Assembly (NCBI GenBank): GCA_024404275.1
Contig: JAKSQG010000005.1
Span: forward strand, 1-24,390
DNA: 24,390 nucleotides
Source: Clostridia bacterium
Lineage (GTDB): Bacteria; Bacillota; Clostridia; Christensenellales; Aristaeellaceae
Direction of reading: 5' to 3'
The position numbers and the translations under genes are program-made. Below, piece by piece: positions 4,128 to 19,826 of the stretch; the first letter of the stretch is position 1, and every line of letters starts with the position of its first letter. The notes under the pieces were generated by a model. That model did not search any database. It worked only from the letters and a program-made list of their open reading frames with translations, and had not been told where the DNA came from.

Positions 4128-4945
4128 TTGAGCAGGCGATCAGAAAAATGCTCGGCACCGGCAGCGAGTCCGTCCTGAACCGGGAGGAACTGGAAAAGGT
4201 CGAGGGGCTTTATATTTTCGGCGATGTGATCGCCATGAATGAAGATGAGTTTTATGAAGCGGCCAATCGTTGGTACGCCGGCGGCAGCAGGCTATATGGC
4301 ACAATCACGCGGCTGGATGATGTTGTACTTCTGCCAAATCTTCGACGGGTGATGATTGCCGCCAATGAGGTTGAGAATATCTCGCCTTTGTCTGCACTGA
4401 CCAAATTGGAAAAGGTGGAATTCAAGCATAACCGCATCAGCGACATTACGCCGCTGAAGGGGCTGAAGATGCTTTGTTCTGTGGGCTTGAACGACAACCC
4501 CGTGACCGATGTGACGGTGCTGCTGACGCTGCCGGAACTTCGTTATCTGGATTTGTGTGACGCCTCTGCTTATGATGCGGTTGGGTTGGCAGGGCTTCAT
4601 GATATGGAGCTGCTGGATATTTCCAATCGTACCGACAGCGGACGGTACCTTGGCACAAAACATATCCGTGATCTGAGGATGGGATGGACAAATCTGGACA
4701 GCCTGGACGCGCTTGCCGGGGTGATGGGGCTTGAAAGATTGAGCATTGAGCATACACGCATTACCAGTTTGGAAGGCATTGAACGCCATGCGGGACTGAC
4801 CTATCTGCGTATGTCCGGTTGTGAGGTGAAGAATCTGACGCCGCTTCTATTGCTTCCTGAACTGAAGACACTGGTCATTGACGGTGCCCGCCGGGGGGAT
4901 GTGGAAGTGCTGGGTGAAGTGCGTTTTGAGGTGCTGTATGAATGA
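4124..4945 (+). CDS. Leucine-rich-repeat (internalin-like) protein; possibly the detached ectodomain of the preceding kinase
   Basis: About 22-residue LRRs (..NRISDITPLKGLKMLCSVGLNDNPVTDVTVLLTLPELRYLDL..). ATG 4124 overlaps the kinase TGA (ATGA). The frame is open from 3938 and looks coding from ~4040. Stop TGA 4943-4945. Confidence 0.75.
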   Translation: MIEQAIRKMLGTGSESVLNREELEKVEGLYIFGDVIAMNEDEFYEAANRWYAGGSRLYGTITRLDDVVLLPNLRRVMIAANEVENISPLSALTKLEKVEFKHNRISDITPLKGLKMLCSVGLNDNPVTDVTVLLTLPELRYLDLCDASAYDAVGLAGLHDMELLDISNRTDSGRYLGTKHIRDLRMGWTNLDSLDALAGVMGLERLSIEHTRITSLEGIERHAGLTYLRMSGCEVKNLTPLLLLPELKTLVIDGARRGDVEVLGEVRFEVLYE

Positions 4946-5159
4946 CCCAAAGAGAAAAAAGAGAATGAAAAACCAGATGAAACGGAAAGCCGCCCTGCTG
5001 CTGTAGACTTTTGCGAGCGCGGCGAAGCGGTGGAACGCCTGATGGAATCACAATGAGCGGTGGATATATGCGAAAGGAGGATGAAAATACCGCAGCACAG
5101 AATGGAAAGGAACCGCAAAACACGAAAAGAAGCAATGAAAAATGAGGAGGAAAAAGGAT

Positions 5160-6227
5160 ATGAAGAAATTATTGCTTGCATTGTTGGTACTGACGCTTGT
5201 GCTGATGTCGTCCGCGATGGCGGAAAAAGCACTCGTAAACACTCCGGAGGAGTTGACAGCAGCCTTGATGAATGATGCGGTGGATGCCATTGAGATCGCC
5301 GCGGACATGACCGTGACCGATTCCTATGTGATGCAGACCAAGGACATTACCATTTTGTCTGATGTGGTCTTTCAACCTGCGCCGGATGAGGGCTTTTTTG
5401 TAAAGAGTTGGGAGATTCCGGAGGGCGTGACGCTGACCGTAAAGGGAAAGGTGACGACAGTACATACCTTTGAAGAGGGATTCGTCATCGCCCAATTTTA
5501 TTTGAATGGCGGTACGATGGATATCGGTGAGGGCACGGTCAGTGATGACTGCAACATCTGCTTCAATGCCGGTACACTGGTTGCTCCCGCGGCGGGCTTT
5601 GGTCCCAACGTGGAGGTAGCGCGTTATCTGTATATGGATGTGACGGAAGACACCATTGCGGAAGCACTGGCACAGGAAGGTTTGCGAAATGCGACGGTGC
5701 AGGCGGAATGCACGATCGAGGGCAATCTGGTGGTACCGGAGGGCAAGGTGCTTGAAATCAGCAGCGTGATGACGCTTATGGATGGCGCGGCTGTGGAGGG
5801 TGACATCATTGTGGATGCCGGGTGCGGCGTCATCTTGAAAGGCAGCGGCCGTTTCAATGATATGATTGTGCCTGAGGGCATGGAGTCTTGCAAGATCCTT
5901 TGGGCGGAGGATGGAAATTGTACGGTGCTGGAGTACAGCGAAACACCTGTGAGTGTGACTATCGGTGAATGGGTGGAGGCAAAAGGCCTGTACAGCAACT
6001 GCATGCTGACCGTGACGGTGAAAGAGATCATCAACCCCGCGCTGGCTCGGGTGGAAGATGAAACCGGGGAAGTCAACCTGTATGGTCTGCAGATCAACGG
6101 AGATTTCTTTGATATTGAGGAGGCAGGGGTGAAACCCGGCGACGTGCTGACATTGAGCAATCCGAAATACAATGTATATGACGGCGTTGTCGAGATGTCC
6201 GATGCCATGCTGATGACGGAGGAGTAA
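5160..6227 (+). CDS. Secreted protein of unknown function (signal peptide; C-terminal OB-fold-like segment is my guess)
   Basis: GGAGG at 5145-5149 lies about 10 nt before ATG 5160. MKKLLLALLVLTLVLMSSAMA is a signal peptide. Stop TAA. The track ORF starts earlier, at 5142. Confidence 0.8.
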   Translation: MKKLLLALLVLTLVLMSSAMAEKALVNTPEELTAALMNDAVDAIEIAADMTVTDSYVMQTKDITILSDVVFQPAPDEGFFVKSWEIPEGVTLTVKGKVTTVHTFEEGFVIAQFYLNGGTMDIGEGTVSDDCNICFNAGTLVAPAAGFGPNVEVARYLYMDVTEDTIAEALAQEGLRNATVQAECTIEGNLVVPEGKVLEISSVMTLMDGAAVEGDIIVDAGCGVILKGSGRFNDMIVPEGMESCKILWAEDGNCTVLEYSETPVSVTIGEWVEAKGLYSNCMLTVTVKEIINPALARVEDETGEVNLYGLQINGDFFDIEEAGVKPGDVLTLSNPKYNVYDGVVEMSDAMLMTEE

Positions 6228-6234: not shown

Positions 6235-6271
6235 AAAAACAGCAGGTCTTATCACAATGACCTGCTGTTTT
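6235..6271. terminator. Bidirectional intrinsic terminator between convergent genes
   Basis: AAAACAGCAGGTC (6236-6248) pairs perfectly with GACCTGCTGTTTT (6259-6271) across a 10-nt loop. A-run and T-run flanks serve both strands. Confidence 0.8.
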
Positions 6272-6295: not shown

Positions 6296-7714
6296 TCAAA
6301 GCGGCGGAATAGCGTCCAAAATGGTTTTTTCCAACGCTTCGCGGCCGTAGCTATCCACGGCAGCCTTGTTCTTTTCACCGTGGGTCAGGTTGCCGGCGCC
6401 GCCGATGCAGCCGCTGATACAGGCCATGCCTTCGATAAAGTTAGCGTCCAAGGCATTATGGGCTTTTTTGATAAGCGCCATGCGACACTCCTCAATACCG
6501 TCACAGACGCAGGCCTTCAGCTGGAAGTCATCCAGATGCTGTTCCTTCAGTCCTTCGGCAACGGCATCGCTCAGACCGCCGCTGCGGGCAAAAATGCGGC
6601 CGAAGTAGCTGGCGTTATTCAGCACATCCTCGGGCAGGGTGGTAATATCGATATCACGGCTGTCGAGCAGTGCCTGCAATTCTTCAAAGGTGATGACGGC
6701 ATCCACATAGGGTTTGACGTCTTCCAACTGTGCTTCGGCCTTTTTCGCGGTGCAGGGACCGATAAATACGATCTTGGCGGTTTCATCATGGTCCTTGATA
6801 TATTTGGCAAGGGTAGCCATGGGCGAGAGATTGTGAGAAATATAGGGCACCAGCGCCGGGAAGGCGGTTTTGACATAGCGGACAAAGGCCGGGCAGCAGG
6901 AGGAGGTCAGGAAGCCTTTTTCCACCAATTCCTTGGATTCCGCCTGGGCAACCATATCAGCGCCCAAAGCGGCTTCGATGACGGTATGGAAGCCCAGCTC
7001 CTTGATGCCGCTGATGACCTGTCCCAGCTTGGCATAATTGAGCTGGCTGCCGATGGCAGGAGCTACCAGGGCATAGACTTTGAATACGCTGTTGTCCTGG
7101 CTTTTTTTCAGCATATCGATCACATTGATGATAAAGGAACGATCCGTAATGGCACCAAAGGGGCACTGATACACACAGGCACCGCACTGAATGCATTTTT
7201 CATCATCGATCTTGGCAGCATTGTCATCATTGATGGAAATGGCCTTGATCTTGCAGGCGTTCTGGCAGGGACGCTTGCGGTTGACGATGGCGCTGTACGG
7301 ACACACCTTGGCGCACTGACCGCATTCCACACACTTGGATTTGTCAATGTGCGCTTCGTGATTGTGGTCAAAGGAGATAGCGCCGCGCTTGCAGACATCC
7401 TCGCAACGGTGGGCCAGACAGCCGCGGCAGGAATCGGTCACCTGATAGCCGACGGCAGGGCAGTCATCACAGGCGATATCAATGACTTGAATGATATTGT
7501 CTCCATTACCGCCTCCCATCGCCAGCTTGACGCGTTCAGCCAGGATGGCGCGTTCCTTGTACACGCAGCAGCGCATGGTGGGGACTTTGCCCGGCACGAT
7601 CATTTTGGGAATGTCCAGCACGTTTTCCAGCAGTGTGTCATTCCATGCCTGACGGGCGACTTCGCGCAGCACCTTGTATTTCAGATATTGTACCTTGGTA
7701 TCAAATTTGCGCAT
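6296..7714 (-). CDS. [FeFe] hydrogenase homologue with ferredoxin-like 4Fe-4S domains (HfsD-like)
   Basis: H-cluster motifs TSSCCPAF, GPCTAKKAE and EGMACISGCIGGAG. Several CxxCxxCxxxCP ferredoxin motifs. AAGGAG RBS. Stop TGA. Confidence 0.85.
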   Translation of the reverse strand: MRKFDTKVQYLKYKVLREVARQAWNDTLLENVLDIPKMIVPGKVPTMRCCVYKERAILAERVKLAMGGGNGDNIIQVIDIACDDCPAVGYQVTDSCRGCLAHRCEDVCKRGAISFDHNHEAHIDKSKCVECGQCAKVCPYSAIVNRKRPCQNACKIKAISINDDNAAKIDDEKCIQCGACVYQCPFGAITDRSFIINVIDMLKKSQDNSVFKVYALVAPAIGSQLNYAKLGQVISGIKELGFHTVIEAALGADMVAQAESKELVEKGFLTSSCCPAFVRYVKTAFPALVPYISHNLSPMATLAKYIKDHDETAKIVFIGPCTAKKAEAQLEDVKPYVDAVITFEELQALLDSRDIDITTLPEDVLNNASYFGRIFARSGGLSDAVAEGLKEQHLDDFQLKACVCDGIEECRMALIKKAHNALDANFIEGMACISGCIGGAGNLTHGEKNKAAVDSYGREALEKTILDAIPPL

Positions 7715-7723
7715 GCGTTCTCC

Positions 7724-8893
7724 TTAAAAATAGCTTACTTTGATTCGTTTACCCATTTTTTTGAGGGCTTGGGACAATTCTTCCACCAAATTCATTTTGA
7801 TGTTGAAGTTGATGGGCAGGTTGGGGTTCTGATGCGCCGGGTTGACGGCTCTGCCTACATAGAAATTGATGTCGGTGGCTTCTTCAAAAAGCAGACGGCT
7901 GATGAGGCAGGCACCGTCCTTGCCGTTGCTCCAGGTCTCATAACACAGGTTATCGCCCGTGTAATCCTTGGCGTATTCCACCACACGGTTGATGGTGATC
8001 ACGCCTTCCGTTACCAGATCGACGCCCTCCAGATAGGCAATGGGCGGAATGTCGCTGTCAAAGTCCAAAGAAGCCCTCAGGGGCTTGTTCAGCCATTTGG
8101 CGGCGATGGAGGAGGTGGTGCCGCCGCAGACGATGTGCTTTCCTTCCTTGGAGAAGAACAGGCTCATCATGCGGTCACCGTCATCACGGTTGCTGGGCGG
8201 TCCGAAGAGCAGATTCATGGGCACGCGCTTGCGGACACGGACCACACAGGAGGTGGCATCATCCCCGGGCTCGCCGCCATACAGCTCATTGCATTTATCC
8301 ACCAACAGGGTGGAAAGGTTCTTGGCGGTATAGCCGCACAGATTCATGGCCTCCATGAAGGGGATGATATCTTCCCGCTTCCAGCCGAAGTTATAGGCAA
8401 TGCCGATGCCTGCGTGGGGGCAGCCGTCGCTCATGGCGATAAAAACATCGTCTTCCTGCAGCCGGATGAGGGAACGGAAGATCTGTTTGCCGCCGATGGT
8501 GCTCTCTGTGCGTGGATATTCATAGTTTTCACCGTTGCGCAGCATGATGACCTGCGGGTTATCATACTGGATCAGCTCTGCCGTCTGATTGCGGATCAGG
8601 CGGATGATGGTGAAGGTGGAATAGGCGACGCCGCGGATGGAGCAGACGGGCAGCGTGGCGGCAATGGTTTCCACGCATTCCTCGATGGAAAGCCCGGCAG
8701 CCAGCATGGTGGAAATGATCTTGCTGGTCAGGGTGGACAGAATGCTGGCTTTGACACCGCTGCCAAGCCCATCTGCCAGCACGATGACGGTGGAGCCGTC
8801 TTCCTGTTCCACAATTTCCACATGATCGCCGCAAAGCTGCTCGCCGGCGTGATTGATGCTTTTGTAGCCGATATCACACGTCAGGTCATTCAT
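7724..8893 (-). CDS. SpoIIE/PP2C-family protein phosphatase (HfsC-like)
   Basis: N-terminal GDHVEIVEQEDGSTVIVLADGLGSGVKASILS and ..AMSDGCPHAG.., DDATSCVVRV are PP2C/SpoIIE-type motifs. The start overlaps the hydS stop by 8 nt (ATGAATGA). Stop TAA. Confidence 0.85.
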   Translation of the reverse strand: MNDLTCDIGYKSINHAGEQLCGDHVEIVEQEDGSTVIVLADGLGSGVKASILSTLTSKIISTMLAAGLSIEECVETIAATLPVCSIRGVAYSTFTIIRLIRNQTAELIQYDNPQVIMLRNGENYEYPRTESTIGGKQIFRSLIRLQEDDVFIAMSDGCPHAGIGIAYNFGWKREDIIPFMEAMNLCGYTAKNLSTLLVDKCNELYGGEPGDDATSCVVRVRKRVPMNLLFGPPSNRDDGDRMMSLFFSKEGKHIVCGGTTSSIAAKWLNKPLRASLDFDSDIPPIAYLEGVDLVTEGVITINRVVEYAKDYTGDNLCYETWSNGKDGACLISRLLFEEATDINFYVGRAVNPAHQNPNLPINFNIKMNLVEELSQALKKMGKRIKVSYF

Positions 8894-10562
8894 TGTTGAT
8901 GGACTCCTTCAGCTTTGAGAGGGCAATCTTGGTTTCGGCGGCAGTTTCACCCAGCAGACTGGCAATTTCCTGCACGATACGCATCTGTTTGTCGACGACC
9001 TTGTCGGCTACTTCGACCGTCTGGCGCCGGATGTCTTCCTTCTGCTGACGGGCAGCTTCTTCCTCGCTGACGTCACGCATAATGCACAGCAGCATACGTC
9101 CGCCCTCAGCGGGAACGATGGTCTGCTCCACGGTACAGTTGTATTCCGCCAGATAGGTGCGCTCGTTAAAGATACCGCGGCCGGAGTTTTTTACCTTCAT
9201 GAAGGGGATGGGGTCCAGAATGCGGACAACCTGATCTCCCAGCACGGCACTTTCGGAGCGCAGATTCAGGATCTTGCGGGCAGCGGGGTTGATCTGCTGC
9301 ACTTCCAGCTGATCGTTGAGCATCAGGATGCCGTTGGGGCTGTTGCGGGCAATGGTATCGCTGACGTTTTCCGCTTTTTCCATCAGGTAAGGCAGGCACA
9401 TGGAGGGCTCCGCCTTGCCCTGATAAATGGCGATGGCTTTTTCACGGCAGGTATTGTAGCCGCAGGAGCCGCAGTTCAGCTCCTGAGAGGGTTTGAACTT
9501 GCCCATTTCACGCAGAATATCGCGGATCTCAAATTCAGTGGGCAGGGCGGCGCGCTGCTCGATGGGGGCAAAATGCTTGCGCAGCTCCTGTGCTTCGGGC
9601 TGATCGATCTCAAAGTCCTTATCACCGGCGTAACGGGCGACAGCCAGATAATCCTTCACCGGGCTGTGACCGTATTTTTCCATCACGGGACCGCCGGCAC
9701 AACTGCCCACGCAAGCGCTCATCTCGATAAAGCAGCGATGGATCTTGCCCTGCTCGATCTCCTTCAGTGCGGCGATGCAGTTTTCAATACCATCGAAAGC
9801 GATATAGGTATAGCCCGGGGCATCCTGTGCCATGGTTTTCAGTACGCCGCCGGTGGTGGGAAAGAAACGTGCCAGACTATGTTCATCCGGCTGCTTTTCC
9901 TGACGAAGTTCAACGCCTTCCTTTTTAAGCCAGTTGGTCAGCTCTTCAAAGGTCAGCACCGCGTCAACGATGCCCTCGTAGTGCTCCGCTTCATCCTTCT
10001 TTGCCACGCAGGGACCGACAAAGACGGTCTTGGCGCCGGGAATACGGCGCTTGATGTCCTCACAGTGCGCCTGCATGGGGGAAAGTACATCCGCCAGATA
10101 GGGCAGCACACGGGGGAAATGCTTCTGAATGAGCAGGTTGATGGAGTGGCAGCAGGAAGAGATGACGATGTCACGGTTTTCTTCCTGCAGAATGCGCTCG
10201 TATTCCCGCTTTACAAGCGTAGCGCCCAAAGCGGTCTCTTCCACATCGTGGAAGCCCAGCTTTTTGAGCGCTTCCCGCATGGCTTCAATGCCCACACCAT
10301 CATAGTTGGCAACAAAGGACGGCGCCAGAGAGACGACCACCGGGGCGCCGCTCTGAATGAGAACCTTTGCCTTTTCGGTCTGGTCCACGATCTCCTTGGC
10401 ATTCTGCGGGCAGACGACAAAGCAATGACCGCAGAGGATGCACTCATTGTCGATGATGTGAGCCTGGTTGCCGGAAAAACGGATGGATTTTACCGGGCAG
10501 TGACGGATGCACTTATAGCAGTTTTTGCAGTTGGATTTTTTTAAAGTCAGGCAGTTTGGCAT
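8886..10562 (-). CDS. hydS: Putative sensory [FeFe] hydrogenase with C-terminal Cys motif and PAS domain (HydS / HfsB-like)
   Basis: N-terminal 2x[4Fe-4S] ferredoxin motifs. H-cluster motifs ISSCCHS, GPCVAKKDE and EMSACVGSCAGGP. CGSCGYNTCx16C motif, then a PAS-like segment (NSPNGILMLNDQLEVQQINPAARKIL..). Stop TGA. Confidence 0.85.
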   Translation of the reverse strand: MPNCLTLKKSNCKNCYKCIRHCPVKSIRFSGNQAHIIDNECILCGHCFVVCPQNAKEIVDQTEKAKVLIQSGAPVVVSLAPSFVANYDGVGIEAMREALKKLGFHDVEETALGATLVKREYERILQEENRDIVISSCCHSINLLIQKHFPRVLPYLADVLSPMQAHCEDIKRRIPGAKTVFVGPCVAKKDEAEHYEGIVDAVLTFEELTNWLKKEGVELRQEKQPDEHSLARFFPTTGGVLKTMAQDAPGYTYIAFDGIENCIAALKEIEQGKIHRCFIEMSACVGSCAGGPVMEKYGHSPVKDYLAVARYAGDKDFEIDQPEAQELRKHFAPIEQRAALPTEFEIRDILREMGKFKPSQELNCGSCGYNTCREKAIAIYQGKAEPSMCLPYLMEKAENVSDTIARNSPNGILMLNDQLEVQQINPAARKILNLRSESAVLGDQVVRILDPIPFMKVKNSGRGIFNERTYLAEYNCTVEQTIVPAEGGRMLLCIMRDVSEEEAARQQKEDIRRQTVEVADKVVDKQMRIVQEIASLLGETAAETKIALSKLKESINNE

Positions 10563-10566
10563 GGCG

Positions 10567-10806
10567 TTACACCCTTGCTTTGATTACATTTTCGAAAAAG
10601 GTGGGAACAGTCTCGGGGGAAACGGAAAAGAATTCACCGTCTACCGTGACGCAAACGCCCTGCTGGCATTTGCCCATGCAGAATGTGCCGCCCAGCTCGA
10701 TCTTGTCACTGAGGTTTTCCTTCGCAATCAGCGCCTGAAGCTGCTCCACCACGGGACGAGAGCCTTTGATGTGGCAGGAAGAACCGATACAAACCGTAAC
10801 CTTCAT
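10567..10806 (-). CDS. Small thioredoxin-like [2Fe-2S] ferredoxin (HfsA-like)
   Basis: 79 aa with four Cys in VCIGSSCH ... FCMGKC. GGAG RBS 9 nt upstream of the ATG. Stop TAA 4 nt before the hydS ATG. Confidence 0.75.
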   Translation of the reverse strand: MKVTVCIGSSCHIKGSRPVVEQLQALIAKENLSDKIELGGTFCMGKCQQGVCVTVDGEFFSVSPETVPTFFENVIKARV

Positions 10807-10832
10807 CTTTTTTGTCTCCTTTTTGCGATGTT

Positions 10833-10877
10833 TTATAAAAACAGGAAAAGGAGGGGTGATGGTTCCCTCCGTTTTCC
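10833..10877 (-). terminator. Intrinsic terminator/attenuator hairpin between the APH-fold kinase gene and the hfsA-like gene
   Basis: Minus strand: GGAAAA(C)GGAGGG-AACCATCAC-CCCTCCTTTTCC followed by TGTTTTTAT. It lies only ~35 nt upstream of the hfsA-like ATG. Confidence 0.7.
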
Positions 10878-10908
10878 TTCATCATACGAGTCAGAAAATC
10901 AATGATTT

Positions 10909-11658
10909 TTAATGATATTCCACCACGTTGGCCCAGGACAGCAGGAATTCTCTTTCCTTTTCCTTGCCCTTGACGGACTGGCTGGCGGCGACGATGGGCA
11001 TCCACTTCTGCACATACTGCAGGGGGGTGCCGCTCTTTTCACAGAACAGCTTCAGGTATTCCTTGGCGCCGTCGATATCGCCGTTCAGCCAGAACAGCAG
11101 ATAGGTACGGGCAACATCGGCGGAGGCGTTGCCCTGCGTGACATGGCTCCAGTCGATCACGTAAGGGGTGCCGTCCTCGCTGATGATCACGTTGGAGGGC
11201 CAGAAATCGCCGTGACACACTTTGCTGTGATTGGGCATACCCTCCAGACGGGCGTGAAGATCAAAACGGGTGGTGGCATCCAGGTCAGCCTGGCTGATCT
11301 TGCGCTCCATCTTGTCCCTGAGGCGGTTCAGATGGGAACAGCTCTTGCTCTGGATCTCCAGCTGCAGATCCACAAACTGATTGAGGTATTTGTCCTTGTT
11401 GTCCGGGTCTTCTTTCATCAGCTGGGACAGGGTTTTGCCCTTGATGAACTCAGAGATGATGGCCCATTTTCCATCGATCATGGTGACACCCAGGAGCTTG
11501 GGAATGTGCAGCCCGGTCTCTTCAATGCGCGCCTGGTTGAGCGCTTCGTTGAGGATGTCGGCTTTGGAGTGACTTTCATCGAACACCTTGATGCAGCGGT
11601 CACCGTCACGGTAAATGGTTTTGTCGTTGCGTACGGCAATAACGCGATCCAGATTCAT
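10909..11658 (-). CDS. Aminoglycoside-phosphotransferase/choline-kinase-fold (APH-like) kinase
   Basis: CHGDFWPSNVII and YVIDWSHV (HxDxxxxN / DxS Brenner-type motifs). GAAGGAGG lies 8 nt before ATG 11658. The track ORF starts 7 codons earlier. Stop TAA. Confidence 0.8.
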   Translation of the reverse strand: MNLDRVIAVRNDKTIYRDGDRCIKVFDESHSKADILNEALNQARIEETGLHIPKLLGVTMIDGKWAIISEFIKGKTLSQLMKEDPDNKDKYLNQFVDLQLEIQSKSCSHLNRLRDKMERKISQADLDATTRFDLHARLEGMPNHSKVCHGDFWPSNVIISEDGTPYVIDWSHVTQGNASADVARTYLLFWLNGDIDGAKEYLKLFCEKSGTPLQYVQKWMPIVAASQSVKGKEKEREFLLSWANVVEYH

Positions 11659-11675
11659 CTTTTTTGTCCTCCTTC

Positions 11676-14378
11676 TCACAGCTTACGGCCGGGACGATAG
11701 GCTTTTTTCACCGCGTCGTTTCCCGGCTCGGCAATGTTAGCCTCAGTGGGCTTGGCCATCTCGGTAAAGTGCTTGCCGCCGTAATAGGCGTTCAGGTACA
11801 TCTGCTTGATCTCGCTCATCAGCGGATAGCGGGGATTGGCACCGGTGCACTGATCGTCAAAGGCCTGCTCCACCATGTCATCCAGTCTGGTCAGGAAATC
11901 CTGCTCATCGGGAACATAATCCTTGATAGTGGGCTTGATCCCCACATAAGCCTTCAGATTGTTGATCATCTGAATCAGGGCTTCCAGCTTTTCATGGTCG
12001 GTGCCCTGGTTAATTCCCAGCGCCTCGGCCACCTGCGCGTAGCGGCGCAAGGTATGGGGATGATCGTACTGAGGGAAGGTGCCCATCTTGGCAGGAGCTT
12101 CGCAGGCGTTGAAGCGCAGCACTTCTTCGATCATCAGAGCGTTGGCTACACCGTGAGGAATGTGATGGAAAGCACCCAGCTTGTGCGCCATGGAGTGGCA
12201 GACACCCAGGAAGGCGTTGGCAAAGGCCATGCCGGCCATGGTGGCTGCATTAGCCATTTTCTCACGAGCTTCCACATCTGTCAAGCCATTGTCATAGGCT
12301 TGAGGCAGATATTCAAAAATGGTTTGCAAAGCTTTGATGGCAAGGCCATCTGTATAGTCCGTCGCCATCATGGAGGCATACGCTTCAAGGGCGTGGGTGA
12401 CGGCGTCGATGCCGCTGGCGGCGGTCAGACCCTTGGGAGCGGTCATATGGAAATCGGTATCGATGATCGCCATGTTGGGCAGCAGAGCATAATCGGCAAG
12501 GGGATATTTGACACCGCTCTTTTCGTCGGTGATGACGGCAAAGGGCGTTACCTCACTGCCGGTACCGGCGGAGGTGGGAATGGCGACAAAATAGGCCTTT
12601 TCGCCCATCTTGGGGAAGGTATAAACACGCTTGCGGATATCCATGAAGCGCATGGCCATGTCCTGGAAATCCACTTCGGGATGCTCGTACAGCACCCACA
12701 TGATTTTGCCGGCGTCCATGGCGCTGCCGCCGCCCAGAGCGATGATCACATCGGGCTGGAACAGACGCATCTGTTCCGCGCCGGCCTTGGCGCAAGCCAG
12801 GGTGGGATCGGGCGCGACGTCAAAGAAGGTTGCGTGCTGAATGCCCAGTTCATCCAGCTTCTTGGTGATGGGGGCGGTGTTTCCGTTGTGATAAAGGAAA
12901 GAGTCGGTGACGATAAAGGCCTTCTTTTTGCCCATAACTTGCTTCAGTTCGTCCAGCGCCACCGGCAGGCAGCCCTTTTTGATATACACCTTCTCCGGCG
13001 TACGGAACCACAGCATGTTTTCTCTCCTTTCAGCCACGGTTTTGATGTTCAGCAGGTGCTTGACGCCCACGTTTTCGGATACGGAGTTGCCGCCCCAGCT
13101 GCCGCAGCCGAGGGTGAGCGAGGGGGCCATCTTGAAGTTATACAGATCGCCGATACCGCCCTGCGAGGAGGGGGTGTTGACCACGATACGGCAAGTCTTC
13201 ATCTTGGCGGCAAAGGCATCCAGCACATCGGGCTTCTTCTGCGTATCGATGTACAGGGAGGCAGTGTGACCGTAGCCGCCATCGGCAATCAGACGATCGG
13301 CTTTGGCGAAGGCATCATCCAGATCCCTGGCACGGTACATGGCCAGCACGGGGCTCAGCTTTTCATGGGCAAACTCTTCACTGAGGTCCACAGATTCCAC
13401 TTCACCGATGAGCACCTTGGTGCCTTCGGGAATGGTGACACCGGCCAGCGCGGCGATCTTACAGGCGCTCTGACCGACGATCTTGGCGTTCAGGGCACCG
13501 TTGATCAGGATGGTGTGGCGCACCTTGTCCAGATCGGCACCGGTCAGGAACCAGCAGCCTCTTTGAGCAAATTCGGCTTTCACCTGATCGTAAATGCTGT
13601 CCAGCACGATCACGCTCTGCTCGGAAGCGCAGATCATGCCGTTATCAAAGGTCTTGGAATGGATGATGGAGTTGACAGCCAGCACAACATTGGCACTGTC
13701 ATCGATGACAGCAGGCACGTTGCCCGCACCGACGCCCAGTGCCGGCTTGCCGCTGGAATAAGCCGCCTTGACCATGCCGGGACCGCCGGTGGCCAGAATG
13801 ATATCGGCTTCGCGCATGACCATGTTGGTCATTTCCAGAGAAGGGACATCGATCCAGCCGATGATGCCTTCAGGAGCGCCGGCTTTGACCGCAGCATCCA
13901 GTACCACCTTGGCAGCGGCAATGGTGGCCTTCTTGGCGCGGGGATGGGGGCTGAAAATGATGCCGTTGCGGGTCTTGAGGCAGATCAAAGCCTTGAAGAT
14001 GGCGGTAGAGGTCGGGTTGGTCGTGGGGATGACGGCGGCGACCACGCCAATGGGCTCAGCCAGCTTTTTGATGCCGTAGGCTTTGTCCTCCTCGATGACG
14101 CCGCAGGTCTTGGTATCGCGGTAAGCGTTGTAAATATATTCACTGGCATAGTGATTTTTGATGACTTTGTCTTCCACTACGCCCATGCCGGTTTCTTCAA
14201 CGGCCAGCTTGGCCAGAGAAATACGGGCCTGATTGGCAGCGGTGGCAGCGGCCAGGAAAATGCGGTCCACCTGCTCCTGAGTATAGGTCGCATAGATGCG
14301 CTGCGCTTCGCGTACGCGCTTAATGGCGGCTTCCAGCGCTTCGGTGTTGTCCACCAGATCAAATGCTTTGGTTTCCAT
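11676..14378 (-). CDS. adhE: Bifunctional acetaldehyde-CoA / alcohol dehydrogenase
   Basis: 900 aa. ALDH domain with catalytic FDNGMICASEQ. Fe-ADH domain with GGGSAMDAGK and His-rich metal motifs. AGGAGG lies 6 nt before ATG 14378 (the track ORF begins 38 codons upstream). Stop TGA. Confidence 0.97.
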   Translation of the reverse strand: METKAFDLVDNTEALEAAIKRVREAQRIYATYTQEQVDRIFLAAATAANQARISLAKLAVEETGMGVVEDKVIKNHYASEYIYNAYRDTKTCGVIEEDKAYGIKKLAEPIGVVAAVIPTTNPTSTAIFKALICLKTRNGIIFSPHPRAKKATIAAAKVVLDAAVKAGAPEGIIGWIDVPSLEMTNMVMREADIILATGGPGMVKAAYSSGKPALGVGAGNVPAVIDDSANVVLAVNSIIHSKTFDNGMICASEQSVIVLDSIYDQVKAEFAQRGCWFLTGADLDKVRHTILINGALNAKIVGQSACKIAALAGVTIPEGTKVLIGEVESVDLSEEFAHEKLSPVLAMYRARDLDDAFAKADRLIADGGYGHTASLYIDTQKKPDVLDAFAAKMKTCRIVVNTPSSQGGIGDLYNFKMAPSLTLGCGSWGGNSVSENVGVKHLLNIKTVAERRENMLWFRTPEKVYIKKGCLPVALDELKQVMGKKKAFIVTDSFLYHNGNTAPITKKLDELGIQHATFFDVAPDPTLACAKAGAEQMRLFQPDVIIALGGGSAMDAGKIMWVLYEHPEVDFQDMAMRFMDIRKRVYTFPKMGEKAYFVAIPTSAGTGSEVTPFAVITDEKSGVKYPLADYALLPNMAIIDTDFHMTAPKGLTAASGIDAVTHALEAYASMMATDYTDGLAIKALQTIFEYLPQAYDNGLTDVEAREKMANAATMAGMAFANAFLGVCHSMAHKLGAFHHIPHGVANALMIEEVLRFNACEAPAKMGTFPQYDHPHTLRRYAQVAEALGINQGTDHEKLEALIQMINNLKAYVGIKPTIKDYVPDEQDFLTRLDDMVEQAFDDQCTGANPRYPLMSEIKQMYLNAYYGGKHFTEMAKPTEANIAEPGNDAVKKAYRPGRKL

Positions 14379-14438
14379 ACTGTTCCTCCTCTTGCTTGTA
14401 CATAGCCCAAGCATTGCGTTGAAAGGTTTTTCGTTCCT

Positions 14439-14477
14439 TTCGATACGCATTATATCGAATCGGAAATCCTTTGGGAA
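14439..14477 (-). promoter_or_regulatory. Candidate adhE promoter (TTCCCA-17-TATAAT) overlapped by a 7-bp dyad
   Basis: Minus strand: -35-like TTCCCA (14472-14477) and -10 TATAAT (14449-14454). Dyad TTCGATA-N7-TATCGAA spans 14439-14459 and covers the -10. Confidence 0.35.
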
Positions 14478-14525
14478 TAACCAAAAAAGCATAACCGTTA
14501 TATCATAATCGATTATACGAGATCG

Positions 14526-14577
14526 AAAAAAACAAATAAGAACAGCCTTGCAGTCGATCGAATCGGCAGCAAGGCTG
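14526..14577 (-). terminator. Intrinsic terminator after the LysR-family gene
   Basis: Minus strand: CAGCCTTGC-17 nt loop-GCAAGGCTG (14543-14577) followed by TTCTTATTTGTTTTTTT. Confidence 0.75.
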
Positions 14578-14591
14578 ATAAGGGAAGGCGA

Positions 14592-15518
14592 TTACTTATT
14601 TTGCCCAATGCAGGCGCGCTTGGATTGCATCAGGTCGGTCAGGAAGGTTTTGTCCAGCTTGGTCAGGTGATAGTCATGACGGTAAATCAGCATATCGCGG
14701 TAAATGCGTCGCTGATCGGCGCATTCCCTTTGCACCAGGTGAAAGCGCTGCAAAAGCCTTTCCGGAAGGGGAGATACCCACATGAAAGTTTGGGGATTTT
14801 CGGACAAAAGGTCCAGCTGACTTCCCCGCTCAAAGACAAAAATGCGCCGGGGCGTTTGCGGCAGCTCTTCCTCCCGGACGGCAGAAAGCGGCAGGGAAGG
14901 CACTGTGGGATCGGCATGGGCGATTTGAATACAGGACTTCAGATCGGAAAAATGGATGCTGTCGAGGGCGGCAAGGGGGCTGCTCTCATGCATGACCAGA
15001 ACATATCTGAATTCCGAAATCAGCTCGCACTGCAGCCCTTTTTCCTCCAACAGCTGCCGGAAGTGTTTATCATGAGCGCTCGCGTAGCGGATGATGCCCA
15101 GACGGTATCCGGATTCGAGAATGTTTTTGATGGCCTGCAGGGAGTTGGTTTCCTGATAGAAGATCTCTGCCTCTTCTTCTCCCAGCGAGCGGGAAAAAGC
15201 GGAAAAGGCATCCGAAATATAACTGGCCCGGGGAACGGAGATGGAGAATTCCAGCTTTTCCGCTCTTCCCTTATACAGGCTTTCCATCTCTTCCACCTGT
15301 TCCAGAATCTTGCGGGCACGGCTGATAAACAGCGCGCCGTCCGGCGTCAGCAGCATGCCCTTGGGGGAACGGCGGAAAAACTGGATGCCAAGATCGGCTT
15401 CCATTTCCCGGACAATCCTGCTCAGGTTGGGTTGTGCGACATGCAGTTCTTCGGCAGCTTTGTTGATCGAGCTGTTTTCGGCGATGGAGACCACGTATTT
15501 CATGTGAAGCAGATTCAT
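14592..15518 (-). CDS. LysR-family transcriptional regulator
   Basis: N-terminal HTH MNLLHMKYVVSIAENSSINKAAEELHVAQPNLSRIVREME..; 308 aa, the typical LysR length. GAGG RBS. Stop TAA. Confidence 0.93.
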   Translation of the reverse strand: MNLLHMKYVVSIAENSSINKAAEELHVAQPNLSRIVREMEADLGIQFFRRSPKGMLLTPDGALFISRARKILEQVEEMESLYKGRAEKLEFSISVPRASYISDAFSAFSRSLGEEEAEIFYQETNSLQAIKNILESGYRLGIIRYASAHDKHFRQLLEEKGLQCELISEFRYVLVMHESSPLAALDSIHFSDLKSCIQIAHADPTVPSLPLSAVREEELPQTPRRIFVFERGSQLDLLSENPQTFMWVSPLPERLLQRFHLVQRECADQRRIYRDMLIYRHDYHLTKLDKTFLTDLMQSKRACIGQNK

Positions 15519-15915: not shown

Positions 15916-17388
15916 ATGCCGATGCTGATCACTTCAAGGGTTTTCTGGGGTGCGCTGGTGGCCGTTGTGCTGTTTTCGCTCTTTTTTATTTTGTATCGGA
16001 AGTTCTTTTTTGAAAAAGGGCACACGGTGCACAAGGTCCTGCTGGCGTTGTACTCATTGTACATCGGCGGACTGTTCGTAATGATCCTGTTTCCCAACTA
16101 CATGCTGCGGCCGTTTCGTTTTTCCACGGCACGTGTAAATTTGATTCCCTTCAAGGCATTTCATCGGCTGATGACCGACCCGAAGGAACTGATCGGCAAT
16201 CTGCTTCTGTTTGTGCCCTTTGGCTTTTTCTCAGTGCTGAATGACCGGGTCAAGGCAGGACGCCGGCTGCTGAACGTGCTGTGGCGGACGGCACTGATCA
16301 GCGCGGCAATGGAAGTGCTGCAGATGTTTATCGGCCGCGTTACGGACATTGACGATGTGATCATCAATACCCTGAGCGGTCTGCTGGGCGGCGCACTGTG
16401 TGTCATCTGGCATAAGACGCGGCTGGATCACACCCCCTTGGGGGATAAGCTGATGCCGGAGCTGCCCAAGCGCTGGCGCGGCAAGATGGCGGTGCCGCTG
16501 CTGTCCCTGATCATACTGATCGTCTACAGTGTCGGGCTCATGTCGGCCAACGCCATTGTGACCCGATCGATGGGCAGAGAGTATGCTGCTGAAATCAACG
16601 GTGAGACACGACATTTTTCCCTGGATGCGGAAAATGCCCTGCTGTGGGACCGTACCGGGGAAAAGGTGCTGTTTGCAGTAAACGAGCAATCCGGCATCTT
16701 CCCCGCCTCAACCATCAAGCTGGTGCTGGGACTGACAACATTGGATGAGGTTTCTCCCGATGAAAGGGTCACCGTGGGCCGGGAAATTTTGCGTGTGCCG
16801 ATGGATTGCTCAAGGGCGGGCATTGCCATGGGAGCGACCTACACGGTGCGGGAGTTGCTGGCAGGTTCACTGATCACCTCAGGCGCTGACGCCTCCTATG
16901 TGTTGGGCGTATTTTGCGGAAGGGTCTTGCTCGGAAACCCGAACGCCTCGGAAACGGAAGCATTGAATGCCTTCCTTGCCGCGGCGAATGCAAAGCTCCA
17001 AAGCCTGGGCGCTCTCAATACCACGGTGAAAAACGTGGATGGTCTGGATGTCGAGGGGCAGCTGACCACGGTGGAGGATCTGTGCAGGATCGCTTCCGCA
17101 GTGTTGGATGATCCGGTGCTGTCTGAAATCTGCGGCACACCCGAGATGACGATCGGTACGGGAAACACCGCTCTCACACTGAAAAACACCAATGCGATTC
17201 TGCGGGAAGAAAGCGAATTCTTTGAGGCGGATTGCGTGGGCATCAAAACGGGAGCGACCTCCCGTGCAGGCAACTGTCTGATTGCTGCGTTCCGAAAAGA
17301 TGGACAGGAATACATTACCATCGTGATGCATTCGGGCTATGACGGCAAATTTACCGATACGCTGACGCTGGCCGATCTGGTGCTGTAA
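15916..17388 (+). CDS. VanZ-like membrane domain fused to an S11-type D-alanyl-D-alanine carboxypeptidase domain
   Basis: N-terminal multi-TM VanZ-like region (..LLLFVPFGFF.., ..DIDDVIINTLSGLLG..). C-terminal SxxK = STIK, KTG = IKTGAT, and the SxN position reads SGA. Alternative start ATG 15922. Stop TAA. Confidence 0.85.
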   Translation: MPMLITSRVFWGALVAVVLFSLFFILYRKFFFEKGHTVHKVLLALYSLYIGGLFVMILFPNYMLRPFRFSTARVNLIPFKAFHRLMTDPKELIGNLLLFVPFGFFSVLNDRVKAGRRLLNVLWRTALISAAMEVLQMFIGRVTDIDDVIINTLSGLLGGALCVIWHKTRLDHTPLGDKLMPELPKRWRGKMAVPLLSLIILIVYSVGLMSANAIVTRSMGREYAAEINGETRHFSLDAENALLWDRTGEKVLFAVNEQSGIFPASTIKLVLGLTTLDEVSPDERVTVGREILRVPMDCSRAGIAMGATYTVRELLAGSLITSGADASYVLGVFCGRVLLGNPNASETEALNAFLAAANAKLQSLGALNTTVKNVDGLDVEGQLTTVEDLCRIASAVLDDPVLSEICGTPEMTIGTGNTALTLKNTNAILREESEFFEADCVGIKTGATSRAGNCLIAAFRKDGQEYITIVMHSGYDGKFTDTLTLADLVL

Positions 17389-17420: not shown

Positions 17421-18590
17421 GTGAACTATCGGGTTACGGATGGGGTGCTGACGCTGTTTCCGCAAGGCCGGATCGACTCCGGCAATGCAGACAGCACGGA
17501 AAAGGAAATGCGGGCTGTGTGCGTGGCAAACGCCGTCCCGGGACTCATACTTGACCTTGAAAAACTGGCGTATATCTCCAGCGCCGGGCTTCGGGTGGTG
17601 CTGCGGCTGCGCAAGGACTATCCTGAAATGAAAATGATCAATGCTTCCGCCGAAGTATATGACATTCTGGATATGACCGGTTTTACCGAAATGATCCCGG
17701 TGAGCAAGGCGTATCGCCGCCTGAGCATTGAGGGATGCGAGATGATCGGTCAGGGGGCAAACGGCACGGTATACCGTCTGGATGGGGAGACCGTGATCAA
17801 GGTGTACCGCCATGCCGACAGCTTGCCGGAAATCCGGAGAGAAAGAGAACTTGCCCGCAAGGCATTCGTGGCAGGTCTGCCGACTGCTATCCCCTATGAT
17901 GTGGTACGTGTCGGGGAGGGCTATGGCTCGGTGTTTGAAATGCTGAATGCCGGTTCAGTGGCCGATATCCTCAAAAAGGAGCCATAGCGACTGCCGGAGT
18001 GCGCGCACATGATGACCACACTGCTGAAGAAGATCCATGCTACTGAGTTAAAGCCCGGGGAATTTCCCGATGCAAGGCAGACAGCCCTGGACTGGGCGGA
18101 TTTTTTGCAGGACCATCTTCCGCGTGAGCAGTATCAGAAGCTGCGTGGACTGATCGAGGCAGTGCCGCGGGATACGCATGTGCTGCATGGGGATTGTCAT
18201 GTGAAGAATGTGATGATCCAGAATGGGGAGACGCTGCTGATTGACATGGACACCCTGTGTCAGGGGCATCCGGTGTTTGAGTTTGCGGCGATCTATATCG
18301 ATTATCAGGGATACGGCGAACTGAATTCCGAAGATGTCACGACATTTTTCGGCATCCCTCATGAAATCTGCGCGGAATTGATGCGTTTGATCATTGTAGA
18401 GTATTTTGAACTGAAAGAGGAAGCCGCCTACCGCGCAATACTGGACAAGGCGCGCGTAATCGGCTATGCACGGCTGATGCGCCGTACCATCCGCCGGATG
18501 GGGCATACGGAACAAGGAAAGCAGCTGGCTGCCTACTACGCAGAGCGGCTGACGGAGCTGCTGGACTGTGTGGATTCACTGACATTTTAA
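17421..18590 (+). CDS. STAS (anti-sigma-antagonist-like) domain fused to an APH/protein-kinase-fold domain, read through in-frame TAG 17985-17987
   Basis: Track ORFs 17421-17987 and 18009-18590 share a frame. STAS motif LAYISSAGLRVVL. Kinase N-lobe IGQGANGTVYRL..VIKVY lies before the TAG. Catalytic HGDCHVKNVMI and LIDMD lie after it. GTG start with GGGAAGGGAG upstream. Stop TAA. Confidence 0.7.
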
Positions 18591-18904: not shown

Positions 18905-18946
18905 GCAGCGGGACAACTCGTAGCATCGGCAAGGGAGATATGGAGA

Positions 18947-19762: not shown

Positions 19763-19826
19763 ATTCCGCGGCGGAGCGTTTAAGCAACGGTGCGGATAGA
19801 ACAATGCGTTACAGGAGTTGATCTTT

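What the first reader, a model, noticed from the sequence alone, without database searches (positions are those of the whole stretch)
6296..15518. hfsABCD-like H2-sensing cluster physically chained to adhE, an APH-fold kinase and a LysR regulator
Seen: all on the minus strand, in order, are LysR, terminator, adhE, an APH-fold kinase (17-nt gap containing the RBS), a hairpin, a small 2Fe-2S protein, the PAS-hydrogenase, a PP2C phosphatase and a second hydrogenase homologue. The last four are packed with a 4-nt gap, an 8-nt overlap and a 9-nt gap. Established: the same four-gene order is known as hfsABCD in Thermoanaerobacterium saccharolyticum, where hfs lesions change ethanol yield and adhE expression. 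PAS-containing HydS proteins (Thermotoga maritima, Ruminococcus albus) are regarded as H2 sensors that sit next to kinase/phosphatase genes. Inference: adhE sits immediately upstream of the sensor genes, in the same orientation and apparently on the same transcript. This suggests a hard-wired link between H2/redox sensing and ethanol-branch control. The phosphorylation target and the role of the APH-fold kinase (rather than a Hanks or histidine kinase) are unknown.
Basis: partly seen in the sequence, partly recalled or inferred. Interest (0 to 1): 0.65.

Follow-up and report, generated by a model that had tools for sequence, protein, structure and literature searches.

The report
Known hydrogen-sensor/ethanol operon, new host
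This is an uncultured gut bacterium's copy of an operon already described in Ruminococcus albus, which encodes a hydrogen-sensing hydrogenase, a kinase/phosphatase pair, a hydrogen-producing hydrogenase and the ethanol enzyme AdhE together; it is real and conserved but not new.

Summary
The cluster is not new. All seven proteins are full-length orthologues (57-78% identity, same order) of the Ruminococcus albus 7 plasmid cluster LysR | Rex-AdhE-kinase-Fd-Fd-HydS-PP2C-HydA2. That cluster is published as an eight-gene, co-transcribed unit, repressed 111-fold when an H2 consumer keeps H2 low. So the proposed link between H2 sensing and the ethanol branch is already in the literature.

I surveyed 80 species-level genomes with HydS at 72% identity or more. 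Of 52 with enough upstream DNA, 34 have adhE-kinase directly upstream of the sensor genes. Seven have the kinase without adhE, and none has adhE without the kinase. A LysR gene precedes the cluster in 31 of 43.

The window differs in three ways. It has no rex, although the promoter and an inverted repeat over the -10 box are kept. It has one 2Fe-2S gene rather than two. It has a terminator-like hairpin between the kinase and the sensor block, so a single transcript is not proven here.

The kinase has an APH/choline-kinase fold and its substrate is still unknown. A paralogue fused to a STAS domain lies elsewhere in the window. Verdict: a new member of a known kind, of low interest.

The parts
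14592..15518 (-). LysR-family regulator, co-directional with and immediately upstream of the operon
   Evidence: HTH_1 E 9e-17 and a weak LysR_substrate hit. It is 57% identical to the LysR upstream of the R. albus cluster. A LysR homologue directly precedes the cluster in 31 of 43 loci with at least 6.3 kb upstream.
14524..14577 (-). Intrinsic terminator of the LysR gene
   Evidence: Stem CAGCCUUGC/GCAAGGCUG followed by UUCUUAUUUGUUUUUUU; -19.2 kcal/mol, z -3.6.
14491..14516 (-). AT-rich dyads upstream of the -35 box (ATAATCGATTAT and ATAACGGTTAT); candidate LysR binding site (inference)
   Evidence: Read from the sequence. The block is conserved in 8 related promoters.
14439..14477 (-). adhE operon promoter: -35 TTCCCA (14477-14472), -10 TATAAT (14454-14449), and the inverted repeat TTCGATA-N7-TATCGAA (14459-14439) across -10/+1; candidate repressor operator
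   Evidence: Promoter scan scores 10 of 12. The block 14520-14436 is 72-78% identical to the LysR-rex promoter of L005 and L006. The inverted-repeat arms are invariant in 7 of 8 related promoters while the spacer varies. A canonical Rex box sits at the same position in L008.
11676..14378 (-). adhE, bifunctional acetaldehyde-CoA/alcohol dehydrogenase (900 aa)
   Evidence: NCBIfam PRK13805, 1379 bits against a cut-off of 951. It is 73% identical over its full length to R. albus AdhE.
10909..11658 (-). 249-aa APH/choline-kinase-fold kinase, 17 nt after adhE
   Evidence: Pfam APH 7.9e-15; nearest NCBIfam is TIGR02172, below its cut-off. The catalytic motifs HGDFWPSN and IDW are present. The AF2 model has pLDDT 79 and its best PDB matches are APH(3')-Ia, APH(4), LicA and YtaA. 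It is 69% identical to the R. albus 'phosphotransferase' WP_013483408.
10836..10880 (-). Terminator-like hairpin in the 102-nt kinase/Fd spacer; probable partial terminator or attenuator inside the operon
   Evidence: GGAGGG-N9-CCCUCC extended by A-tract/U-tract pairing, then UUUUCCUGUUUUUAU; -19.4 kcal/mol, z -3.9. Forty of 58 related loci have an 11-25 nt spacer. Eighteen have 52-290 nt spacers, most with unrelated GC-rich hairpins.
10567..10806 (-). HfsA-like thioredoxin-like [2Fe-2S] protein (79 aa)
   Evidence: Pfam 2Fe-2S_thioredx 5.8e-7. It is 78% identical to the first of two R. albus paralogues and 43% to the second.
8886..10562 (-). HydS/HfsB: sensory-type (group C) [FeFe] hydrogenase with a C-terminal FeS motif, PAS domain and helical tail
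   Evidence: Domains. It is 71% identical to R. albus HydS. H-cluster motifs are SSCCH, GPCVAKKDE and EMSACVGSC. G183 and S282 replace the Met residues at CpI positions 353 and 497, as in T. maritima HydS. The Cys equivalent to CpI C299 is kept (PMC10055695).
7724..8893 (-). HfsC: PP2C/SpoIIE Ser/Thr phosphatase with an uncharacterised C-terminal domain of about 165 aa; its start overlaps the HydS stop by 8 nt
   Evidence: SpoIIE 8.5e-13 over residues 32-221. It is 77% identical to the R. albus protein. The C-terminal domain hits no Pfam or NCBIfam family and is poorly modelled.
6296..7714 (-). HfsD/HydA2-type monomeric [FeFe] hydrogenase (472 aa)
   Evidence: TIGR04105 FeFe_hydrog_B1, 560 bits against a cut-off of 450. 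It is 76% identical to R. albus HydA2.
6236..6271 (.). Bidirectional terminator that closes the operon and the convergent gene 5142-6227
   Evidence: A 13-bp stem flanked by A and U runs; -25.1 and -25.9 kcal/mol on the two strands, z -4.7 and -5.9.

Best explanation
The region is the orthologue, in an uncultured herbivore-gut relative of Aristaeella (Aristaeellaceae), of the R. albus 7 fermentation-switch operon.

A sigma-70-type promoter downstream of a co-directional LysR gene drives adhE and a small APH-fold kinase. Transcription then meets a hairpin that probably lets only part of it continue. Beyond it lie a 2Fe-2S protein, the sensory hydrogenase HydS, a translationally coupled PP2C phosphatase and a ferredoxin-dependent HydA2/HfsD hydrogenase.

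Proposed working, by analogy with R. albus:

1. When H2 builds up, the H-cluster of HydS is reduced, with the 2Fe-2S protein possibly acting as its redox partner.
2. The PAS domain and helical tail change the activity of the bound PP2C.
3. The PP2C and the kinase together set the phosphorylation state of a target that is not yet identified.
4. This raises expression of the operon, probably through LysR and/or the operator over the -10 box.
5. Reducing equivalents then leave as ethanol (AdhE) and as H2 from ferredoxin (HydA2) rather than through the bifurcating hydrogenase.

Shown here: gene content, orthology, synteny conservation, cis elements, and sensory-type H-cluster substitutions. Shown elsewhere for the orthologue: co-transcription and H2-dependent expression. 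Inferred: the signalling order, the target, and the roles of LysR and the hairpin.
For: Seven of seven proteins are full-length orthologues of the R. albus pRUMAL01 cluster in the same order. Cultured Aristaeella lactis has the same cluster, with rex.

Published data for the orthologue: an eight-gene cluster is 111-fold down in co-culture with an H2 consumer, and the sensory hydrogenase is described as co-transcribed with the hydrogenase and alcohol dehydrogenase (PMC6776011). HydS and HydA2 form a transcriptional unit on pRumal01 (PMC10838669). Signal transfer from HydS to an adjacent Ser/Thr kinase has been proposed (PMC5707799).

Survey: 34 of 52 assessable species have adhE-kinase directly upstream, 41 of 52 have the kinase, and none has adhE without the kinase.

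HydS carries G183 and S282 at the positions that distinguish sensory from catalytic enzymes (PMC10055695). The 8-nt HydS/PP2C overlap is conserved in all loci.

RNA contigs from a horse-gut metatranscriptome span the adhE/kinase and Fd/HydS junctions. The promoter and the inverted repeat over the -10 box are conserved in 7 of 8 related promoters.
Against: There is no experiment on this organism. The terminator-like hairpin may separate the adhE-kinase block from the sensor block, and no RNA contig crosses it.

The window has no rex and no recognisable Rex box, so the redox input present in R. albus may be missing or supplied in trans.

HydS keeps the Cys equivalent to CpI C299, which only about 17% of sensory enzymes do (PMC10055695), so it may retain more catalytic activity.

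In T. saccharolyticum, hfs behaves as the main H2-producing enzyme as well as a regulator (PMC5707799, PMC11837493).

The kinase fold cannot tell a protein substrate from a small-molecule substrate.
Confidence: 0.8

Rival explanations
1. There are two neighbouring but separately transcribed units. adhE-kinase ends at the hairpin, and Fd-HydS-PP2C-HydB has its own start. Any coupling works only in trans, through the regulators.
For: A hairpin of -19.4 kcal/mol with a U-rich tail sits in a 102-nt spacer. No RNA contig spans it. Eighteen of 58 related loci have independently acquired long spacers with strong hairpins at this same junction.
Against: No promoter-like site was found between the hairpin and the Fd start. 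Forty of 58 relatives, R. albus among them, have only 11-25 nt there, and the R. albus unit is reported as co-transcribed. The first U residues of the tail pair with an upstream A-tract, which weakens termination.
Confidence: 0.3
2. The four hfs-like genes encode mainly a catalytic, multi-subunit ferredoxin hydrogenase rather than a sensor. On this view adhE lies nearby only because both products dispose of electrons, and no signalling is involved.
For: In T. saccharolyticum, hfsABCD is described as the main H2-evolving hydrogenase (PMC11837493). The window's HydS keeps the Cys equivalent to CpI C299.
Against: HydS has the M353G and M497S sensory-type substitutions and a PAS domain. A protein phosphatase and a kinase are conserved inside the cluster. 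Deleting hfsB alone raised hydrogenase activity and adhE expression (PMC5707799). The R. albus cluster is H2-responsive.
Confidence: 0.15
3. The APH-fold protein is a small-molecule kinase, like a choline, ethanolamine or antibiotic kinase, and takes no part in H2 signalling.
For: The best structural matches are aminoglycoside and choline kinases. Its annotated name is simply 'phosphotransferase'.
Against: It is retained next to the sensor genes in 7 loci that lack adhE, and it is present in 41 of 52 loci alongside a PP2C protein phosphatase. A paralogue in the same window is fused to a STAS domain, the classical substrate of partner-switching kinases. Its size and the RIO/Bud32 hits fit a minimal protein kinase.
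Confidence: 0.15

Closest known systems
Ruminococcus albus 7 pRUMAL01 cluster rex-adhE(aad)-kinase-fd-fd-hydS-PP2C-hydA2 (Zheng et al. 2014 J Bacteriol 196:3840; Greening et al. 2019, PMC6776011)
   Same: Gene order and orientation are identical, including the upstream LysR. Identities are 57-78% over full lengths. The 249-aa APH-fold kinase follows adhE after a 15-17 nt gap. The HydS/PP2C 8-nt overlap is the same.
   Different: The window has no rex: about 630 nt present in its nearest relatives is replaced by about 40 nt. It has one 2Fe-2S gene instead of two. Its kinase/Fd spacer is 102 nt with a hairpin instead of 17 nt. It has no canonical Rex box. The host is a relative of Aristaeella rather than a Ruminococcus megaplasmid.
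hfsABCD of Thermoanaerobacterium saccharolyticum (Shaw 2009; Eminoglu 2017, PMC5707799)
   Same: The four-gene order is the same: a small Fe-S protein, a PAS-hydrogenase, a Ser phosphatase and a HydA2-like hydrogenase. A regulatory link to adhE expression has been demonstrated genetically.
   Different: According to the paper, adhE there is at a distant locus (next to Tsac_0415, whereas hfs is elsewhere). No APH-fold kinase in the operon is described. Sequences were not compared directly here.
Thermotoga maritima HydS (sensory group C [FeFe] hydrogenase; PMC10055695)
   Same: It has an H-cluster domain plus a PAS domain. Gly and Ser replace the Met residues at CpI positions 353 and 497.
   Different: TmHydS has Ala at the C299 position, whereas the window keeps Cys (C137). 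The operon context is different.
RsbU/RsbV/RsbW and SpoIIE/SpoIIAA/SpoIIAB partner-switching modules
   Same: A PP2C phosphatase and an opposing Ser/Thr kinase are encoded together and are presumed to act on one substrate.
   Different: The kinase here has an APH/ELK fold, not a GHKL fold. The cluster has no STAS protein, and the PP2C C-terminal domain shows no STAS similarity.
HoxBC-HoxJ-HoxA H2-sensing system of Cupriavidus necator
   Same: The logic is the same: a low-activity hydrogenase senses H2 and controls transcription of metabolic genes through phosphorylation.
   Different: That system uses a [NiFe] sensor with a histidine kinase and response regulator. The proteins are unrelated (PMC5707799).

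Membership tests
R. albus-type HydS/HydA2-AdhE fermentation-switch operon | HydS orthologue: H-cluster domain, C-terminal Cys motif and PAS domain | tested here: met
   71% identity over 558 of 558 residues; Fe_hyd_lg_C, FeS and PAS hits.
R. albus-type HydS/HydA2-AdhE fermentation-switch operon | PP2C phosphatase and HydA2-type hydrogenase immediately downstream of hydS | tested here: met
   77% and 76% identity, with an 8-nt overlap and a 9-nt gap.
R. albus-type HydS/HydA2-AdhE fermentation-switch operon | adhE and a Ser/Thr-kinase-like gene directly upstream on the same strand | tested here: met
   73% and 69% identity, with a 17-nt gap carrying the RBS.
R. albus-type HydS/HydA2-AdhE fermentation-switch operon | rex as first gene of the unit | tested here: not met
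   No Rex homologue anywhere in the window by tblastn. The promoter joins adhE directly. Sixteen of 43 related loci show the same rex-less form with LysR, adhE and the kinase, so rex is a variable part of the cluster.
R. albus-type HydS/HydA2-AdhE fermentation-switch operon | All genes on one transcript | tested here: inconclusive
   RNA contigs cross the adhE/kinase and Fd/HydS junctions but not the hairpin spacer. The contigs are low-depth and could include DNA.
R. albus-type HydS/HydA2-AdhE fermentation-switch operon | Expression responds to H2 partial pressure | not testable with these tools
   Known only for R. albus 7 (PMC6776011).
hfsABCD | Four-gene order: small Fe-S protein, PAS-hydrogenase, Ser phosphatase, ferredoxin-type hydrogenase | tested here: met
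   Domain content. The published description of hfsA-D and their equivalence to HydS and HydA2 is in PMC11837493. No direct sequence comparison with Tsac proteins was possible.
Group C (sensory) [FeFe] hydrogenases | H-cluster Cys ligands are kept, but the non-ligand residues C299, M353 and M497 (CpI numbering) are altered; a PAS domain is present | tested here: met
   M353 is G183 and M497 is S282; the C299 equivalent is kept as C137, so 2 of 3 are altered (PMC10055695). The PAS hits fall just below Pfam cut-offs.
APH/choline-kinase (eukaryotic-like kinase) fold | Bilobal kinase fold with the HxDxxxxN catalytic loop and a metal-binding Asp | tested here: met
   HGDFWPSN and IDW motifs. Pfam APH 7.9e-15. 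Foldseek matches APH(3')-Ia and LicA at E 1e-8, TM about 0.55.
Canonical partner-switching module (PP2C + STAS + GHKL kinase) | A STAS-domain substrate and a GHKL anti-sigma kinase in the module | tested here: not met
   The cluster has no STAS or HATPase domain. The PP2C C-terminal domain compared with STAS gives hhalign probability 0.1.

The most novel reading that the evidence does not exclude
The APH-fold kinase and the HydS-bound PP2C may form a non-canonical partner-switching-type pair, in which an eukaryotic-like kinase of the TIGR02172-like family takes the place of the usual GHKL kinase. Its substrate would be a regulatory protein of the cluster, such as LysR, the PP2C C-terminal domain or the HydS tail, and not AdhE. 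The grounds are that adhE never occurs without the kinase but the kinase does occur without adhE, and that a paralogue in the same genome is fused to a STAS domain.
Probability: 0.2. Interest if true: 0.5.

Novelty: new member of a known kind. Interest (0 to 1): 0.2.

Why it matters
The physical coupling of H2 sensing to the ethanol/acetate branch point explains how gut and rumen fermenters respond to interspecies hydrogen transfer. This bears on methane mitigation and on engineering ethanol producers, but it was established in R. albus in 2014 and 2019.

This window adds modest points:

- The module is widespread in herbivore and human gut Clostridia. Eighty species-level genomes carry the HydS gene, and 34 of the 52 with enough upstream DNA have adhE and the kinase directly upstream.
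- rex is a dispensable part of it.
- The kinase tracks the sensor more faithfully than adhE does.
- A LysR gene is a conserved, so far undiscussed neighbour and a candidate output regulator.
- Cultured Aristaeella lactis carries the cluster and could be used to find the still unknown phosphorylation target.

Tried and rejected
- **Rex operator.** My first search used the wrong spacing (N6) and found nothing. With the correct TTGTKAA-N4-TTMACAA pattern, there were only two 3-mismatch hits, both away from the promoter and no more than chance. The same pattern is found upstream of about 25 related loci.
- **Zheng et al. 2014.** The paper could not be read by DOI or by PMC id. Its content is cited second-hand and from my memory of the abstract.
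- **Metagenome scan.** A scan with an 18-nt promoter pattern returned mostly chance hits. Only 4 of 120 loci were relevant.
- **PP2C C-terminal domain.** It hits no Pfam or NCBIfam family. The AF2 model is unreliable there (pLDDT 45-60), so no fold search was run. The idea that it is STAS-like found no support: hhalign gave probability 0.1.
- **Kinase fold search.** It gave only generic APH and choline-kinase matches and no clue to the substrate.
- **Flanking genes.** The STAS/PP2C module, the Hanks kinase and the VanZ-peptidase gene are found next to the cluster in none of 82 related loci. Their adjacency is therefore not part of the system.
- **More RNA runs.** A further search found none that hold the locus. 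The additional runs were listed only because they share a species label.

Full report
**Observation.**
- LysR: 14592-15518.
- AdhE: the ORF runs 11676-14492, but the true start is the ATG at 14378 behind AGGAGG. NCBIfam PRK13805 scores 1379 bits.
- A 249-aa APH-fold kinase: 10909-11658.
- A 79-aa thioredoxin-like 2Fe-2S protein: 10567-10806.
- A 558-aa [FeFe] hydrogenase homologue with a C-terminal Cys motif and a PAS region: 8886-10562.
- A 389-aa PP2C/SpoIIE phosphatase: 7724-8893.
- A 472-aa monomeric [FeFe] hydrogenase: 6296-7714, TIGR04105, 560 bits.

The 17-nt adhE/kinase spacer with its GGAGG, the 4-nt gap, the 8-nt overlap and the 9-nt gap were all read directly. Three hairpins fold much better than shuffled controls. 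They are the LysR terminator, the hairpin in the 102-nt kinase/Fd spacer, and a bidirectional terminator after the last gene.

**What it is.** A tblastn of the PAS-hydrogenase against plasmid records hit Ruminococcus albus 7 plasmid pRUMAL01 at 71% identity. The annotation there reads LysR, Rex, adhE, 'phosphotransferase' (249 aa), two 2Fe-2S ferredoxin-domain genes, the [FeFe] hydrogenase homologue, a SpoIIE phosphatase and a 478-aa hydrogenase, all on one strand. Every window protein aligns end to end with its R. albus counterpart:

| Protein | Identity to R. albus |
|---|---|
| LysR | 57% |
| AdhE | 73% |
| Kinase | 69% |
| Fd | 78% |
| HydS | 71% |
| PP2C | 77% |
| HydA2 | 76% |

This R. 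albus cluster is published. Greening et al. [quoted passage not shown] It is down-regulated 111-fold in co-culture with an H2 consumer. They state that the sensor is co-transcribed with the hydrogenase and the alcohol dehydrogenase (PMC6776011). Other papers summarise Zheng et al. 2014 in the same sense (PMC5707799, PMC10838669, PMC11837493), and they equate HydS with HfsB and HydA2 with HfsD. I could not open Zheng et al. 2014 itself. From memory, its abstract lists Aad, a Ser/Thr kinase, a Ser/Thr phosphatase and a redox-sensing repressor in the hydS-hydA2 transcription unit.

**Host.** The nearest named relatives of the PP2C are Aristaeella lactis and A. hokkaidonensis (83-84% identity; taxonomy). 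The nearest genome loci are rumen and hindgut MAGs labelled Christensenellales or Clostridia. DNA runs that hold the window are gut and horse metagenomes. Cultured A. lactis has LysR-Rex-AdhE(900)-APH(249)-2Fe2S-HydS(558)-PP2C(389)-hydrogenase(473).

**Conservation survey.** A scan of one genome per species returned 80 loci with HydS at 72% identity or more. I mapped the window and R. albus proteins onto them with tblastn.
- Of 52 loci with at least 4.3 kb upstream of hydS, 34 have adhE-kinase directly upstream and 41 have the kinase.
- Seven have the kinase without adhE, and none has adhE without the kinase.
- Among 43 loci with at least 6.3 kb upstream, the commonest forms are LysR-Rex-AdhE-Kin-Fd-Fd (13) and LysR-AdhE-Kin-Fd-Fd (9).
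- The window's exact form, LysR-AdhE-Kin-Fd, occurs in 3.
- A LysR homologue directly precedes the cluster in 31 of these 43, including loci that lack adhE and the kinase.
- More distant HydS homologues lack the arrangement. Monoglobus (52% identity) has only Fd-HydS-PP2C-hydrogenase. Acetoanaerobium (37%) has none of the partners within 7 kb.

The adjacency is nonetheless specific to the clade.

**How the window differs.**
1. There is no rex. The promoter block 14520-14436 aligns at 72-78% with the LysR-rex promoter of the closest loci. The adhE RBS/start block aligns 34 of 36 with their rex-adhE junction. About 630 nt containing rex is replaced by about 40 nt.
2. There is one 2Fe-2S gene, as in A. 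lactis.
3. The kinase/Fd spacer is 102 nt and carries a hairpin followed by UUUUCCUGUUUUUAU. In 40 of 58 loci this spacer is 11-25 nt. In 18 it is 52-290 nt, and most of those carry strong hairpins with unrelated sequences. A stem-loop has therefore arisen at this junction repeatedly. That fits an attenuator which uncouples abundant AdhE from the low-copy sensor proteins; this is inference.

**Cis elements.** The promoter is TTCCCA-17-TATAAT. The inverted repeat TTCGATA-N7-TATCGAA spans the -10 box and the start region, and its arms are invariant in 7 of 8 related promoters while the spacer varies. In L008 and about 25 other loci, a canonical Rex box (TTGTTAAnnnnTTAACAA) occupies the equivalent position, including in loci with no rex nearby. 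The window has no such box. Two AT-rich dyads upstream of the -35 box are candidate LysR sites. None of these assignments has been tested.

**Sensor features.** Alignment to solved group A enzymes places the H-cluster motifs. SSCCH retains both Cys residues. GPC has Gly where CpI has M353. EMSAC has Ser where CpI has M497. Gly and Ser at these positions are the T. maritima HydS states, and the literature describes C299, M353 and M497 as the residues altered in sensory enzymes (PMC10055695). Cys at the C299 position occurs in only about 17% of sensory sequences, so this HydS may keep a more conventional proton path.

**Transcription evidence.** One horse-gut metatranscriptome has contigs on the PP2C gene, across the Fd/HydS junction (10465-10720), on the kinase gene, across the adhE/kinase junction (11490-11694), on adhE and on LysR. 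None crosses the hairpin. Depth is low, contigs can hide variants, and DNA carry-over cannot be excluded. No other RNA run holds the locus.

**The kinase.** It has the catalytic HGDFWPSN loop and an IDW metal-binding motif. Its best family hit is TIGR02172, below that family's cut-off. An AF2 model (pLDDT 79) matches APH(3')-Ia/IIa, APH(4), the choline kinase LicA and B. subtilis YtaA at TM about 0.55. This confirms the fold but says nothing about the substrate. The family is large, with 322 clusters at 50% identity at E 1e-30 or better, and the closest relatives listed are nearly all stand-alone proteins of about 250 aa. Because it is kept next to the sensor genes when adhE is absent, it most likely belongs to the signalling module and is not an AdhE accessory.

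**A paralogue elsewhere in the window.** At 17421-18590 (+), a STAS domain is followed by a kinase of the same family (TIGR02172, 5.8e-29). It aligns with the whole hfs-cluster kinase at E 2e-9. It is interrupted by an in-frame TAG. The TAG is also present in contigs from three independent runs, and six of the eight members of its 90%-identity cluster, the window's own ORF among them, have the same 188-aa length. Downstream lie a stand-alone STAS protein, a membrane PP2C and an RsbW-like kinase. This module is not found next to the cluster in any related locus, so it is not part of the system. The fusion does hint that this kinase family acts on regulatory protein domains.

**Verdict.** The window is a new member of a known kind, with minor variations: no rex, one Fd gene and an internal hairpin. 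The phosphorylation target remains the real open question, and it is open for the whole family, not this locus in particular.

Noticed in passing
window 17421-18590 (+): A STAS domain is fused to an APH-fold kinase of the same TIGR02172-like family as the hfs-cluster kinase. The gene is split by an in-frame TAG at 17985-17987. Contigs from three independent runs also carry the stop. Six of the eight members of the ORF's 90%-identity cluster, the window's own ORF among them, are 188 aa long. It is therefore a stable split gene, a pseudogene or a read-through site, not an assembly error.
   Followed up: partly
window 18608-21617 (+): A partner-switching-like set of genes: a stand-alone STAS protein (18608-18904), an alpha/beta-hydrolase fragment (18947-19366), a membrane-anchored PP2C (19818-21164, SpoIIE 4e-47) and an RsbW/SpoIIAB-like GHKL kinase (21189-21617). 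None of them lies next to the hfs cluster in any of 82 related loci.
   Followed up: partly
window 14396-14459 (-) compared with L005, L006, L085, L111, L112, L149: rex appears to have been lost from this lineage's operon, because about 40 nt stand where relatives have about 630 nt. The inverted repeat TTCGATA-N7-TATCGAA over the -10 box is kept. It sits where other lineages have a canonical Rex box, so it may be a lineage-specific operator.
   Followed up: partly
kinase/Fd junction in L005, L006, L008, L019, L034, L038, L061, L068, L073, L082 and others: About 30% of related species carry long spacers with strong GC-rich hairpins of unrelated sequence at the same intra-operon junction. This suggests that an attenuator or stabiliser evolved there repeatedly.
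   Followed up: partly
window 6296-7714 (-); L001 11847-13283: NCBIfam places this hydrogenase in 'monomeric [FeFe] hydrogenase B1' (TIGR04105, above its cut-off), and R. albus HydA2 is 76% identical to it. PMC6776011 instead calls the R. albus enzyme group A1. This is a classification discrepancy.
   Followed up: no
L001 (R. albus plasmid) compared with the window and L003-L082: The whole cluster is shared at 70-90% protein identity between Ruminococcus, where it sits on a 420-kb mobilizable plasmid, Acutalibacteraceae, Oscillospiraceae and Christensenellales-like MAGs. That is high for such distant lineages and suggests horizontal spread. Contigs labelled Methanocorpusculum (L027), Blautia (L007) and Faecalibacterium prausnitzii (L023) are probably mis-binned.
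   Followed up: no
window 3234-4945 (+): A Hanks-type Ser/Thr kinase ORF (Pkinase 1.5e-31) overlaps a leucine-rich-repeat ORF in another frame (3938-4945). This may be a frameshifted single gene.
   Followed up: no
window 15916-17388 (+): A VanZ-like membrane domain is fused to an S11 D-Ala-D-Ala carboxypeptidase domain in one 490-aa ORF, divergent from the LysR gene.
   Followed up: no
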